A DNA stretch of 19,895 nucleotides from an uncultured Deferribacteres bacterium (GTDB lineage Bacteria; Zhuqueibacterota; Zhuqueibacteria; Zhuqueibacterales; Geothermadaptataceae). The position numbers and the translations under genes are program-made. The notes beneath the pieces were generated by a model that searched no databases, had not been told where the DNA came from, and saw only the letters and a program-made list of their open reading frames with translations. Below are positions 3,794 to 19,895 of this stretch, one piece after another (the stretch's first letter is position 1; each line of letters begins with the position of its first letter). The stretch lies in NCBI GenBank assembly GCA_964014485.1, contig CAXHAT010000150.1, forward strand, positions 1-19,895, written 5' to 3'.

Positions 3794-3825
3794 AGTCAAA
3801 ATTATTTGATCTTATCATTTTGACT
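3780..3825. repeat. Short palindromic element (family D, GTCA(A/G)AATGAT...ATCATTTTGAC) overlapping the stop codon of the oxidoreductase
   Basis: gtcagaatgat (3780-3790) and agtcaaaat (3794-3802) are both complementary to atcattttgact (3814-3825). It resembles the element at 12296-12368. Confidence 0.55.
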
Positions 3826-3839
3826 CAAACTGACGACGA

Positions 3840-5117
3840 ATGTATAATAAATTCAGCGCTCATGTTGAGCAGTTAAAAAAATATATTCTCTCCGAAAATT
3901 TTCACGGTTACGATCCTTTTGATGCTTTGAACGCGCCGATTTTTCGAAGCCGTTTTTTGCGAAATAATCGTCTGGCGCGACTTGGCGCGCAGCAGGTTTT
4001 GAAGCGTTTGCCATGGAATTTGCGCCCGCTTTTGAAGATTGAAAAGGGCGAAAATCCGGTGACGTTTGGGTTGTGTTTGCAGGGGTTTGCGTATTTGGAA
4101 GCACTGAGAACAGTGAAATGTCATTCAGTCCCGAATCAATCGGGGTATTTGGAAAATAAGGAAGAACGCGCTCTTGAAGACGATCAGCCATGTAGTGGAC
4201 GCGAAGCATCCGGGACTGCATTCCCACGCAAAGCGCGGGAACGAGAAATTGACGTCTGTTTGCAGAAGCTTGAAGCGTTGCAATCCAAGGGCTACAGCGG
4301 GGCGTGTTGGGGGTATGATTTTGATTGGGAAGCGCGTTACGCCACGATTCCGGCGTTTGTGCCGACGGTCGTTGCGACGGGATTTATCACGAATGCGCTG
4401 TTTGAGTATTTTCAACTTTCACGGGATGAGCGTGCGCGCCGCTTGTGCATCTCAGCTGCGGATTTTGTGTTGAATGATCTCAACAAAACCTGGCGCAACG
4501 GTAGGTTTTGCTATTCATATTCGCCGCGCGACACGCAGATTGTTTTTAACGCGACGATGAAAGGTGCGCGCTTGCTGGCGCAGGTTTATTCGCTGACGAA
4601 TGAACAAAAGCTGGCGGACGAAGCGCGACAGACCATCGAATTCGTCATGGCCTATCAGCGCGAGGACGGGGCGTGGAGCTATTCGCACGGCGACAAACGT
4701 ACGTGGGTGGATAATTTTCACACGGCCTACGTTCTCGACTGCCTCGACGTTTATCGCGAACACACTGGCGACCGCTCTTTTGACGCGCAGTTTGACAGGG
4801 GCATGGAGTTTTATCTGGATCATTTTTTCACCGAAAGCGGCGCGCCGAAATATTACGATCAATCGCTCTGGCCAATCGATTCCACCGCCGTCGCGCAGTC
4901 GATTTTGACGTTGACGCGCTTTGGGCGCCTGGAATTGGCCGGAAAAGTCGCGAATTGGGCGGTTGAAAACATGATGCATCCGGACGGCTATTTTTTTTAT
5001 CGCAAATATCGCTGGATCACCAACAAAACTTCATTCATGCGCTGGTCGAATGCGTGGATGTTTTTGGCGTTGGCGTTTTATCAGTATAAAGTGACCGTCT
5101 GCCAACCGGAATCTTGA
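3840..5117 (+). CDS. Conserved polysaccharide-locus protein with probable (alpha/alpha)6 barrel (QW-repeat / AGE-epimerase-like fold); carries an apparent repeat-derived in-frame insertion
   Basis: Motifs GYDPFDALN, GYSGACWGYDFDW, PTVVATGF, QW-like QREDGAWSY, WVDNFHTAY and MRWSNAWM. Function is not assignable from the sequence. Confidence 0.8.
   Translation: MYNKFSAHVEQLKKYILSENFHGYDPFDALNAPIFRSRFLRNNRLARLGAQQVLKRLPWNLRPLLKIEKGENPVTFGLCLQGFAYLEALRTVKCHSVPNQSGYLENKEERALEDDQPCSGREASGTAFPRKAREREIDVCLQKLEALQSKGYSGACWGYDFDWEARYATIPAFVPTVVATGFITNALFEYFQLSRDERARRLCISAADFVLNDLNKTWRNGRFCYSYSPRDTQIVFNATMKGARLLAQVYSLTNEQKLADEARQTIEFVMAYQREDGAWSYSHGDKRTWVDNFHTAYVLDCLDVYREHTGDRSFDAQFDRGMEFYLDHFFTESGAPKYYDQSLWPIDSTAVAQSILTLTRFGRLELAGKVANWAVENMMHPDGYFFYRKYRWITNKTSFMRWSNAWMFLALAFYQYKVTVCQPES
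4197..4248. repeat. Single arm of REP-like family C inside the CDS
   Basis: The reverse complement tttctcgttcccgcgctttgcgtgggaatgcagt matches 15882-15915 at 32/34 positions. Internal hairpin ttccc-acgc-aaa-gcgc-gggaa. Confidence 0.9.
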
Positions 5118-5191: not shown

Positions 5192-5440
5192 ATGCCTGAA
5201 GTTGCAAGATTTTACGGTATCGTTATCAAATTGTTTTTTGGCGACCACCCGCCGCCGCACTTCCATGCAGTCTATGCAGAACATATCGGCGTATTCAATA
5301 TCGACACTCTGGAAATGATGGAAGGCGACTTGCCGAATAGAGCAAGAAAGCTTGTAATTGAATGGGCTAAGATTAACCAGAGCGCGTTGAAGAAGATGTG
5401 GGACAGCCAAGAATTTCAAAAACTACCGCCGTTGAAATAA
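5192..5440 (+). CDS. DUF4160 domain protein (putative HicA-like toxin of a TA-like pair)
   Basis: 82 aa with the characteristic MPEVARFYGIVI..FFGDHPPPHFHAVY and GDLP.RA.KLV.EWA patterns. Confidence 0.88.
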   Translation: MPEVARFYGIVIKLFFGDHPPPHFHAVYAEHIGVFNIDTLEMMEGDLPNRARKLVIEWAKINQSALKKMWDSQEFQKLPPLK

Positions 5441-5442
5441 AC

Positions 5443-5694
5443 ATGAAACACCCCAAAGTGAAATCGGCGACAGCGATTGATACTCATATTCTGTTAGTCG
5501 AGTTTGATAATCAAGAAAAGAAGGCTTATGACGTCACGCCTTTGCTTAAAAAGGAAATGTTCGCTCCGTTAAAAAATCACGCTTTTTTCAAAGCCGTGAA
5601 GGTTGAGCAAGGCGGCTACGCCATCTCCTGGAACGAAGAGATTGATATCAGCGAATATGAGTTATGGAGAAATGGACGAGCTTTGCCGCAATAG
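5443..5694 (+). CDS. DUF2442 domain protein (putative antitoxin)
   Basis: ATG at 5443, 2 nt after the upstream stop. L.VEFDN...YD..P, F.PLKN...F..V.V..GG.AISW..EIDI..YELW is the DUF2442 pattern; canonical partner of DUF4160. Confidence 0.85.
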   Translation: MKHPKVKSATAIDTHILLVEFDNQEKKAYDVTPLLKKEMFAPLKNHAFFKAVKVEQGGYAISWNEEIDISEYELWRNGRALPQ

Positions 5695-9838: not shown

Positions 9839-10045
9839 AGTCCTGGAAGGACGATTGATAATAGCCAGGCGATTTATCGCCTGGAGCCAAAGGTCTTGCA
9901 TGATTTTAAGTCCCGTCAGGGACGATTGAGACTGTGGGAGCGCGACAAAACTTCATTCGTCCCTGACGGGACTACGGTGACAAACAAAACGTTGTCTGCC
10001 CCAGGAGTTCACTCCTGGGCTATTTTCGACCGTCCCTACGGGACT
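9839..10045. repeat. Four-arm palindromic REP/MITE-like element (family G)
   Basis: Perfect 17-bp inner inverted repeat agtcccgtcagggacga (9909-9925) / tcgtccctgacgggact (9957-9973). Outer arms 9839-9884 and 10000-10045 are related and inverted, each with an 8-bp hairpin and a TTYA loop. Confidence 0.85.
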
Positions 10046-15838: not shown

Positions 15839-16125
15839 GCGAAGCGCGCGTTATTCCCCCTTCTTCAAGGATGGACAGTTTTTTCTCGTTCCCATGCTTT
15901 GCGTGGGAATGCAGTTCCGGGGCGCTTCGCGCCCATTCTCTTCGCGGACTGTTTCGCTCGCTATACCGCGCGAGAGCGGCGCGAAGCGCCTGGGCTGCAT
16001 TCCAACGCGAAGCATTGGAACGAGAAATCAGGATTTTGCGCTCGAAGCCCGAGTTTGTCGATGAGCCGGTGAAAAAACTGTCCGCCCCTGAATCCCCTTC
16101 GAAGGGGGGAATTTAGGCGCTTCGC
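15839..16125. repeat. Nested inverted-repeat element: a complete family C REP doublet inside a family E element
   Basis: Inner arms 15882-15934 / 15978-16027. Outer arms ggacagttttttc (15873-15885) / gaaaaaactgtcc (16071-16083), attcccccttc / gaaggggggaat, and gcgaagcgc (15839-15847) / gcgcttcgc (16117-16125). Palindrome ccccttcgaagggg at 16094-16107. Confidence 0.88.
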
Positions 16126-17737: not shown

Positions 17738-18209
17738 AACGCAGAGCCGCAAAGAACGCAGAGAAATGACAAATTTTAGACGGGATTACAGGATAGAACT
17801 GGATTTAGGTCTTCTGAAGCAAACTACAAATATCTTGTAAATCCTGTTAATCCGGTCAAAAAATAACATACTGGTTTCCGGCTTGTTGGCTCGTTGCCAA
17901 GCTGCACTTGGCAACGCAATTGTTTTCGAAGTTCTGCTTCGAGTCAAAAAAATGCGAAGTACAACTTCGCGAGCAGGCCCCGTTAACCAAGCTCCAGCTT
18001 GGTAACGAGAAGAAAGCGGAGACAGGAGTGCAAAGCTTGCTTTGCCTTTCCGGCTCGTTACCAAGTTACACTTGGTAACGCAATTGTTCTCGAAGTTCTA
18101 CTTCGAGTCAAAAAAATGCGAAGTACAACTTCACGAACAGGCTCCGTTACCAAGCTCCAGCTTGGTAACGAGAATCAACCAAACTCAGCGCTCTCCGCAG
18201 CTCTGCGTT
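17738..18209. repeat. Composite repeat array: a family A inverted pair enclosing one family B element and two tandem family C-related elements
   Basis: aacgcagagccgcaaagaacgcagag (17738-17763) / ctcagcgctctccgcagctctgcgtt (18184-18209). Family B at 17776-17861. Near-identical 124/123-bp copies at 17888-18011 and 18052-18174. Confidence 0.9.
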
Positions 18210-19768: not shown

Positions 19769-19832
19769 GTTTAGAGCAGATAGAGGAGCGAAAAGCATGC
19801 TTTGCCAATCTTCCGATTTTTGACGATAGTTT

Positions 19833-19895
19833 TGGAATGGTGGAATGGTGGAATGGTGGAATGGTGGAATGGTGGAATGGTGGAATGGTGGAATG
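19833..19895. repeat. Perfect 8-bp tandem repeat (TGGAATGG)n, truncated by the window end
   Basis: Seven full units plus 7 nt of an eighth. Confidence 0.97.

What the first reader, a model, noticed from the sequence alone, without database searches (positions are those of the whole stretch)
4091..4250. Palindromic repeat inserted in-frame inside a protein, creating new peptide sequence
Seen: 4197-4248 is an arm of the same repeat found intergenically at 15882-16027 (32/34 identity over the core). It is translated without a break as ...GREASGTAFPRKARERE... in the 425-aa ORF. The surrounding segment also holds a 10-bp direct repeat gtatttggaa (4091-4100, 4145-4154) flanking a mini-palindrome cccga-atcaa-tcggg. 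Inference: about 35 aa between AYL and IDVCLQKL are extra relative to homologs as I recall them, so selfish palindromic DNA appears to have been accepted into a loop of a probably functional enzyme. Known precedent: Rickettsia palindromic elements. I am not aware of a report for this repeat family.
Basis: partly seen in the sequence, partly recalled or inferred. Interest (0 to 1): 0.8.

Follow-up and report, generated by a model that had tools for sequence, protein, structure and literature searches.

The report
REP hairpin repeat translated inside a gene
One arm of a mobile hairpin repeat, whose own transposase gene lies elsewhere in the genome, sits in frame in a floppy loop of an otherwise well-conserved sugar-enzyme-like protein; this is real but a known kind of event.

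Summary
Bases 4194-4247 (54 nt, codons 119-136) are a single arm of a dispersed two-hairpin repeat: 53 arms at 29 loci, E 5e-10 for this copy. It is read without a stop in the 425-aa ORF 3840-5117.

The loop holding it is 36 residues longer than in 117 of 119 homologs. AlphaFold models residues 96-128 as disordered between two helices of a confident alpha/alpha-barrel.

The repeat is a REP/REPIN family:
- 23 of 29 loci are inverted doublets.
- Four stem pairs covary.
- Doublets flank a REP-associated tyrosine transposase gene on contig C1.

Only half of the extra 36 residues is repeat-derived. The left half (4101-4193) matches nothing. The lengths fit two separate 54-nt insertions, which is an inference.

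The host protein keeps 63 of 64 invariant positions, so it does not look decayed.

A second intragenic arm sits in a polyketide synthase. Another palindrome family lies in frame in about 25 long ORFs.

In-frame REPs are already described (Rickettsia RPEs; Di Nocera 2013), so this is a new member of a known kind. Nothing shows expression, and Logan contigs do not bridge the right junction.

The parts
3840..5117 (+). Host gene, 425 aa (P0001): alpha/alpha-barrel protein in a polysaccharide-biosynthesis gene cluster
   Evidence: ORF and translation. AlphaFold mean pLDDT 90.6. Foldseek best matches are cellobiose 2-epimerase and AGE-type barrels, E 2e-8, 10-13% identity. Neighbours are sugar-modifying and capsule genes.
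4098..4247 (+). Loop codons 87-136. It holds 50 residues where 117 of 119 homologs hold 12-14.
   Evidence: Alignments A1 and A2 and the spacing count. Residues 96-128 have pLDDT below 50 and no secondary structure.
4194..4247 (+). Single REP arm, 54 nt, exactly codons 119-136 (SGREASGTAFPRKARERE)
   Evidence: nhmmer E 5.2e-10, 41.2 bits. Alignment with 39 other full-length arms; conservation stops sharply after ...ACGAGAA.
4197..4211 (+). Hairpin 1 of the arm (6-bp stem, GAA loop) with one C.A mismatch
   Evidence: Pair counts. This mismatch occurs only in the two intragenic arms (2 of 40). It is a synonymous change in both reading frames (read from the sequence).
4221..4241 (+). Hairpin 2 of the arm, followed by the conserved tail CGAGAA (4242-4247)
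4101..4154 (+). 54-nt unit closed by the second copy of the 10-nt direct repeat (first copy 4091-4100). It holds two small hairpins (4102-4115, 4130-4144). Its origin is unknown.
   Evidence: No significant match in the genome, to 14 doublets or in 40 relatives.
4155..4193 (+). Codons 106-118 (NKEERALEDDQPC). Under the two-insertion model, E87 plus these 13 residues are the native 14-residue linker.
   Evidence: Inference from lengths only: 50 - 18 - 18 = 14, the spacing in 90 of 119 homologs.
15883..16026 (.). Intergenic inverted doublet (REPIN-like) of the same family, between a SIS/HAD gene and a Wzi gene

Best explanation
A single arm of a REP/REPIN-type hairpin repeat lies in frame in a surface loop of an intact alpha/alpha-barrel protein and is tolerated there as 18 extra residues.

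Shown:
- The arm belongs to a family of 53 arms, mostly inverted doublets between genes. The stems covary.
- Doublets of the family flank a REP-associated tyrosine transposase (RAYT) gene on another contig.
- The loop is 36 residues longer than in nearly all homologs.
- The loop is predicted to be disordered.
- The rest of the protein is as conserved as its relatives.

Inferred:
- The arm was placed by the RAYT, or is what remains of a doublet placed by it. The mechanism would be the single-strand, IS200/IS605-like one known for this enzyme class.
- The insertion survived for three reasons. Its length is a multiple of three. The repeat is open in almost every frame. The site is a loop that also accepts unrelated insertions in other lineages.
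- The 36 extra residues probably arose as two separate 54-nt insertions: the direct-repeat-bounded unit 4101-4154 and the arm 4194-4247. I put about 0.45 on this sub-point.
For: Family and anatomy:
- 53 arms at 29 loci.
- 23 loci are inverted doublets. The only full-length internal singlets are the two intragenic copies.
- Four stem pairs change on both sides: GC 31/AT 9, TA 31/GC 9, CG 29/AT 10, AT 20/CG 19. Pairing there is 39-40 of 40.

Transposase:
- The ORF at L020:1165-1703 scores 98.7 bits on NCBIfam NF047646, REP-associated tyrosine transposase (cut-off 80, E 2.6e-28).
- A doublet lies on each side of it, at L020 967-1114 and 1715-1862.

Insertion:
- 117 of 119 homologs have 12-14 residues where P0001 has 50.
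- Of 80 genome loci of relatives, 43 could be measured. 42 have the short spacing and one is 5 residues longer.

Tolerance:
- pLDDT is below 50 for residues 96-128, between helices 73-95 and 130-146, in a model of mean pLDDT 90.6.
- P0064 and P0091 carry unrelated 36-37-aa insertions at the same place.
- A same-family genome (G009) has a different dispersed repeat, 45 matches, in frame about 12 residues further on.

Intact host:
- 63 of 64 invariant and 56 of 60 near-invariant columns are kept.
- Mean identity to the other 31 sequences ranks 14th of 32.

Frames: each of the six frames is stop-free in 29-39 of 40 arms.

Assembly:
- Per-run contigs from three runs of one study reproduce 3840-4251 and 4249-4550 with no differences.
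- The exact 425-aa protein is on 5 contigs in NCBI and ENA, the longest 89,758 nt.
Against: - No close ortholog exists (the best is 55-65% identical). No empty site is available, and both the insertion boundaries and the two-event model rest on lengths alone.
- The left 93 nt of the extra segment match nothing.
- No Logan contig bridges the right junction 4248/4249 by 31 nt or more. One record reaches only 3 nt past it. Contigs break there because other copies of the repeat share the 31-mers.
- The junction was not found in JGI metagenome contigs.
- The RAYT scores below Pfam's Y1_Tnp cut-off (20.1 against 23). It matches the solved E. coli TnpA-REP only at E 0.002.
- Folding energies of the arms are not better than shuffles (z -0.5 to -1.1). 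Structure is supported by covariation only.
- The conserved end (ACGAGAA) is neither the GTAG nor the CGTC tag of the described REP superfamilies (PMC3733652).
Confidence: 0.8

Rival explanations
1. One composite event rather than two. A whole doublet, or an arm with carried-along DNA, of about 108 nt entered once. The left arm and spacer were then replaced or decayed while the right arm stayed intact.
For: Intergenic members are nearly always doublets of 87-158 nt, a size range that includes 108 nt. In the REPIN view recalled from Bertels and Rainey (listed, not read), singlets are remnants of doublets. The polyketide synthase insertion is a mosaic of several repeat families.
Against: The right arm is still about 90% like its family. 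The left part scores like shuffled sequence against 14 doublets (p 0.27-0.89). Decay that unequal is unlikely without replacement. The lengths fit 18 + 18 + a native 14 exactly.
Confidence: 0.3
2. The repeat-coded residues have been recruited. Residues 130-136 (RKARERE) now form the start of the helix that homologs begin with their own sequence, so the arm is no longer neutral.
For: AlphaFold starts helix 130-146 inside the repeat-coded part, with mean pLDDT 83 for residues 131-140. MAFFT aligns FPRKA..RERE with the family's FPEK...Y... segment.
Against: Other copies of the repeat encode the same FPRKA peptide in that frame, so the likeness to FPEK is not gene-derived. It is also two residues out of register. 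No functional data exist.
Confidence: 0.1
3. The gene is dead or dying, and the insertions accumulate because nothing selects against them.
For: Two or more insertions lie within 150 nt. No expression data exist (one search listed no RNA run).
Against: The 425-aa frame is intact. It keeps 63 of 64 invariant and 56 of 60 near-invariant columns, mid-range among 32 sequences. Both units are exact multiples of three. The structure prediction outside the loop is confident.
Confidence: 0.05
4. Assembly artefact: the contig was joined wrongly through a repeat.
For: Logan contigs break at 4245-4251, and other copies branch there.
Against: Both flanks are halves of one gene family, in the same frame and order. 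The left side and the arm are covered by contigs from two runs, and the right side starts at 4249 in a third. The identical protein is on 5 contigs in two archives.
Confidence: 0.03

Closest known systems
REP/REPIN elements with REP-associated tyrosine transposases (REPtrons), including intragenic REPs (Di Nocera, De Gregorio, Rocco 2013, PMC3733652; passages read)
   Same: Short hairpin units, mostly between genes, mostly as inverted dimers, with compensatory stem variants. A single transposase gene of the RAYT family is flanked by the repeats. A minority of units lie in frame inside genes.
   Different: The conserved end is ACGAGAA, not GTAG or CGTC. Each arm holds two hairpins and is about 50 nt, longer than the 20-40 nt given for REPs. 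The host is an uncultured marine-metagenome bacterium, not one of the phyla that paper lists in the passages I read.
Rickettsia palindromic elements (RPE; Ogata et al. 2000, cited through PMC3733652 and PMC3184786, not read itself)
   Same: Palindromic repeats are read in frame inside genes that still look functional and add peptide segments to loops.
   Different: There is no evidence of sequence relatedness (not tested). This genome is large (8.4 Mb), not reduced. Here a cognate transposase gene is present; the CGTC-type REPs, to which that paper assigns RPE-4 and RPE-6, are said to lack a dedicated one (PMC3733652).
MITE and small-repeat ORF fusions in enterobacteria, pneumococci and others (review: Delihas 2011, PMC3184786; passages read)
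   Same: Small repeats with open frames are fused in frame to host genes, internally or at the ends.
   Different: Those are mostly TIR-type MITEs moved by DDE transposases. This one is a hairpin repeat tied to a Y1 (HUH) transposase.

Membership tests
REP/REPIN-RAYT system | Dispersed short hairpin-forming repeat units, mostly outside genes | tested here: met
   53 arms at 29 loci. Only 2 loci have protein homology on both sides of the repeat. At 7 other loci a long stop-free frame crosses the repeat; in the 5 with an identifiable domain or gene start, that domain or gene begins after the repeat, and C133 and C46 matched no family.
REP/REPIN-RAYT system | Units paired as inverted doublets (REPINs) | tested here: met
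   23 of 29 loci are inverted pairs 87-158 nt long, 22 of them with the tails outward.
REP/REPIN-RAYT system | Stems kept by compensatory changes | tested here: met
   Four pairs change on both sides, with 39-40 of 40 arms paired at each. The alignment and structure are my own, so the counts lean towards that structure.
REP/REPIN-RAYT system | A RAYT gene flanked by the same repeats | tested here: met
   NCBIfam NF047646 equivalog, 98.7 bits against a cut-off of 80. Doublets lie 51 nt upstream and 12 nt downstream of the ORF. The His-hydrophobic-His and Tyr motifs are visible in the translation. Pfam Y1_Tnp is below its cut-off.
REP/REPIN-RAYT system | Transposase acts on the repeat (binding and cleavage at the conserved tag) | not testable with these tools
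   Needs biochemistry.
GTAG- or CGTC-tagged REP superfamilies (Di Nocera 2013) | GTAG or CGTC tetranucleotide at one end of the unit | tested here: not met
   The conserved end of 40 aligned arms is ...ACGAGAA, and the flanks beyond it are unrelated.
Rickettsia palindromic elements | Sequence relatedness to RPE families | not tested
   No RPE sequence was fetched. The likeness is in behaviour only.
AGE / cellobiose 2-epimerase-type (alpha/alpha)6 barrel (host protein) | Barrel fold | tested here: met
   Foldseek E 2.2e-8, TM 0.54-0.64 to cellobiose 2-epimerases, on a model of mean pLDDT 90.6.
AGE / cellobiose 2-epimerase-type (alpha/alpha)6 barrel (host protein) | Family-level sequence match and catalytic residues | tested here: inconclusive
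   Only a 51-residue stretch matches Pfam Pec_lyase above its cut-off. GH127 and GH88 are below theirs. TIGR02474 scores 24 bits against a cut-off of 189.8. Catalytic residues were not mapped.

The most novel reading that the evidence does not exclude
In this lineage hairpin repeats may be a regular source of new protein segments, not a rare accident.

- One loop of this barrel family has taken unrelated 36-37-residue insertions in three lineages, and a dispersed repeat nearby in a fourth.
- Two 54-nt two-hairpin units may sit side by side here, the left one being the last trace of a lost repeat family.
- Part of the repeat-coded peptide is modelled as the start of a helix.
- A second palindrome family is read in frame in about 25 long ORFs of this large, free-living-type genome, many of them polyketide or peptide synthases.

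If the loop or its DNA attracts the transposase, or if the peptides are used, this would be repeat-driven protein innovation outside reduced genomes.
Probability: 0.15. Interest if true: 0.55.

Novelty: new member of a known kind. Interest (0 to 1): 0.3.

Why it matters
It adds a clean, anatomically resolved case of a transposase-linked hairpin repeat read as protein. The case comes from a large genome of an uncultured marine bacterium. The full-text search for 'Calditrich' with 'RAYT' found no paper.

It also ties the repeat to its likely transposase. That makes simple tests possible: cleavage of the arm by the enzyme, and activity of the host protein with and without the 18 or 36 extra residues.

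For annotation, it warns that peptides such as those coded by this arm and by the 24-nt palindrome are repeat-derived and should not be read as conserved motifs.

Tried and rejected
- Left half as a decayed second arm: local alignment of 4087-4198 to 14 doublets gave p 0.27-0.89 against shuffles. nhmmer with filters off found only the known arm. Rejected as untestable by similarity.
- Left half as another repeat family: the only hit in the genome is an 18-nt exact match on C204 at E about 0.01. In 40 relatives there are scattered single hits at E 0.001-0.1 at different positions. Treated as chance.
- The 10-nt direct repeat as a target-site duplication: its background rate is too high for it to carry weight alone.
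- Thermodynamic support for the hairpins: z -0.4 to -1.1, not distinctive.
- Terminator or promoter role: no terminator-like site at the arm. The promoter-like match at 3820-3848 overlaps the start codon.
- Known RNA family: no Rfam match in 4050-4300 at E up to 1.
- Expression: no RNA holder listed.
- Right junction in other data: no Logan record bridges it by 31 nt or more. No exact match in JGI metagenome contigs.
- Other Y1 transposase genes: seven Pfam Y1_Tnp matches, none on a contig that carries arms of this family.
- A large 'hairpin plus ACGAGAA' superfamily: 61 of 1449 tag sites follow a perfect stem of 6 bp or more, against 12-23 for control words. That is little more than this family itself.
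- Earlier notes on this genome and on this sequence: none fitted.

Full report
**What is there.** The window is contig C150 of an 8.4-Mb, 465-contig genome. The ORF 3840-5117 encodes 425 aa (P0001). It lies in a cluster of sugar-modifying and capsule genes: a GFO/IDH/MocA oxidoreductase, a DegT aminotransferase, a sugar transferase, an epimerase, a GHMP kinase and Wzi.

AlphaFold with a 32-sequence alignment gives a confident model, mean pLDDT 90.6 and pTM 0.89. Its best solved look-alikes are cellobiose 2-epimerase and related (alpha/alpha)6 barrels (E 2.2e-8, TM 0.54-0.64, 10-13% identity). Sequence families say little more.

**The repeat.** 4210-4248 is 92% complementary to 15882-15920. Two rounds of nhmmer over the genome found 53 arms at E up to 0.01. 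The copy in the gene scored E 5.2e-10.

An arm is about 50 nt and has four parts:
- a 5-6-bp hairpin with a GAA or AAA loop;
- a short spacer;
- a second hairpin;
- the tail ACGAGAA, after which the flanks are unrelated.

The 53 arms lie at 29 loci:
- 23 loci are inverted pairs of 87-158 nt.
- One is a partial tandem.
- Five are single arms. One of these is a 29-nt fragment and two sit at contig ends.
- The two full-length internal singlets are exactly the two copies that lie inside genes.

Four stem pairs vary on both sides (GC 31/AT 9, TA 31/GC 9, CG 29/AT 10, AT 20/CG 19), with 39-40 of 40 arms paired at each (my own alignment and structure). Folding energies are no better than shuffles, so covariation is what supports the hairpins.

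**The transposase.** On contig C1 a 179-aa ORF matches NCBIfam NF047646, REP-associated tyrosine transposase, at 98.7 bits (cut-off 80). Pfam Y1_Tnp is just under its cut-off. The solved E. coli TnpA-REP matches weakly (E 0.002).

A doublet lies 51 nt before the start and another 12 nt after the stop. A third lies about 340 nt further upstream. This is the layout called a REPtron in PMC3733652 (passages read). The tail is neither GTAG nor CGTC, so the family falls outside the two superfamilies named there.

Arms of this type were not found in the 9 same-family genomes searched. Single-arm matches turned up in 7 of 31 other genomes of the same order or class (one of the seven, G016, is unpublished).

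**The insertion.** In a 120-sequence alignment the stretch between the L86 and I137 columns holds 14 residues in 90 homologs, 12 in 23 and 13 in 4. It holds 50 in P0001.

Two homologs, P0064 and P0091, hold 51 and 50 residues there. Their sequences are unlike P0001's and unlike each other's. Among 80 genome loci of relatives, my motif ruler measured 43. Of those, 42 have the short spacing and one is 5 residues longer.

The arm with its conserved inner flank is 4194-4247. That is 54 nt and exactly codons 119-136. Residues 96-128 have pLDDT below 50 and no secondary structure, between helices 73-95 and 130-146. The last seven repeat-coded residues are modelled as the start of the second helix.

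**The other half.** 4101-4193 has no significant match:
- in the genome;
- to 14 doublets (p 0.27-0.89);
- in 40 relatives.

The 10-nt direct repeat is real and bounds a 54-nt unit with two small hairpins. Such repeats occur at 0.35 per kb. Removing 18 + 18 residues leaves 14, the commonest native spacing. I therefore favour two separate 54-nt insertions, but only at about 0.45. A single composite event is the main alternative.

**Is the gene alive?** P0001 keeps 63 of 64 columns invariant in the other 31 sequences and 56 of 60 near-invariant ones. That is mid-range for the set. The sequences were chosen as P0001's best hits, which favours it somewhat. The best relatives are only 55-65% identical, so no dN/dS estimate was possible.

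**Is the assembly right?** Logan contigs of three runs of one study, labelled marine metagenome, match with no differences:
- 3840-4126 and 4108-4245 in run X1;
- 3932-4116 and 4118-4251 in run X3;
- 4249-4550 in run X2.

They bridge the left junctions. None bridges 4248/4249 by 31 nt or more, and other copies of the repeat branch off there. The best holder may be the sample the window came from. The exact protein is on 5 contigs in NCBI and ENA, the longest 89,758 nt. A junction pattern was not found in JGI metagenome contigs.

**Why it could survive.** Each of the six frames is stop-free in 29-39 of 40 arms, so length is the main filter. Both units are 54 nt.

The second intragenic arm (C114:8436-8487) is read on the other strand and in another phase. 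It lies inside a 67-residue insertion in the acyltransferase domain of a 1598-aa polyketide synthase. The insertion shows as a gap against CurL.

Both intragenic arms share one G-to-A change that breaks a pair in hairpin 1. The change is synonymous in both genes and is seen in none of the 38 other arms. With two cases, this may be shared descent or selection against a strong hairpin. I cannot tell which.

**Wider pattern.** The ortholog in a same-family genome (G009, 67% complete) carries a different insertion about 12 residues downstream. Its DNA has 45 matches in that genome, three of them being the insert itself and two near-identical copies.

In G000 a 24-nt palindrome has 326 copies at up to 3 substitutions. 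Of these, 49 lie in stop-free frames of 300 aa or more with at least 100 aa on each side, in 25 ORFs. One is a 3140-aa KS-AT-aminotransferase-C-A-PCP-TE synthase, where two of three sites fall between Pfam domains and one falls inside the adenylation domain. I did not check homology on both sides for the other 24 ORFs.

**Comparison with what is known.** In-frame palindromic repeats were first reported in Rickettsia (Ogata 2000, cited in PMC3733652 and PMC3184786; not read). Intragenic REPs, single and dimeric, in several species are described in PMC3733652. In-frame fusions of other small repeats are reviewed in PMC3184786.

Full-text searches found no paper holding 'Calditrich' with 'RAYT' and none holding the peptide word RLRGND. 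This scan's own notes list some 210 findings of the same kind in other genomes (unchecked AI notes). The case is real and tidy, and a new member of a known kind.

Noticed in passing
G000 genome-wide; for example L107 (C3:18400-28200) and L019 (C114:6000-11400): A 24-nt palindrome has 326 copies (up to 3 substitutions). 49 lie deep inside 25 long stop-free ORFs, often as pairs about 45 nt apart, read as peptides like SFPRRRES...DSRLRGND or VIPAQAGI. Many hosts are polyketide or peptide synthases of 1000-3140 aa.
   Followed up: partly
L019:2219-3391 (C114 polyketide synthase, acyltransferase domain): A 67-residue insertion relative to CurL (4mz0). It is a mosaic of the 24-nt palindrome, one REP arm of the family studied here, a third roughly 10-copy repeat and a lone hairpin-1 motif.
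   Followed up: partly
L002:1726-1884 (-), genome G009: The ortholog in a same-family genome carries an in-frame insertion of about 50 residues, with RRSRRDA(F/L)E twice, about 12 residues downstream of the site in P0001. Its DNA has 45 matches in that 67%-complete genome.
   Followed up: partly
Proteins P0064 and P0091 (alignment A2, columns between L86 and I137): Two distant homologs have unrelated insertions of 37 and 36 residues at the same loop as P0001, nearly the same length as here. Their DNA could not be fetched.
   Followed up: no
window 17888-18174: Two 98-nt direct repeats (91% alike) plus 26-nt units. The units are a hairpin followed by AACGAGAA, the same tail as the REP family, with different stems.
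   Followed up: no
window 9839-9884 (-) and 10000-10045 (+): Two matches to Rfam Acido-Lenti-1 RNA above its gathering score (46.3 and 50.6 bits) on opposite strands. They flank a 21-nt inverted repeat at 9909-9973, between the sugar transferase and an oxidoreductase gene.
   Followed up: no
G000 C105:1532-1604, C213:324-395, C386:3773-3845, C459:88-153 and 1607-1679: Five arms carry the same insertion of about 24 nt inside the loop of hairpin 2. This looks like a small element nested in the REP.
   Followed up: no
window 5192-5694: A small DUF4160 gene overlapping a DUF2442 gene sits between the barrel gene and the aminotransferase gene, inside the polysaccharide cluster.
   Followed up: no
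window 19825-19895: An 8-nt tandem array (TGGAATGG) runs to the end of the contig, which probably explains why the assembly stops there.
   Followed up: no
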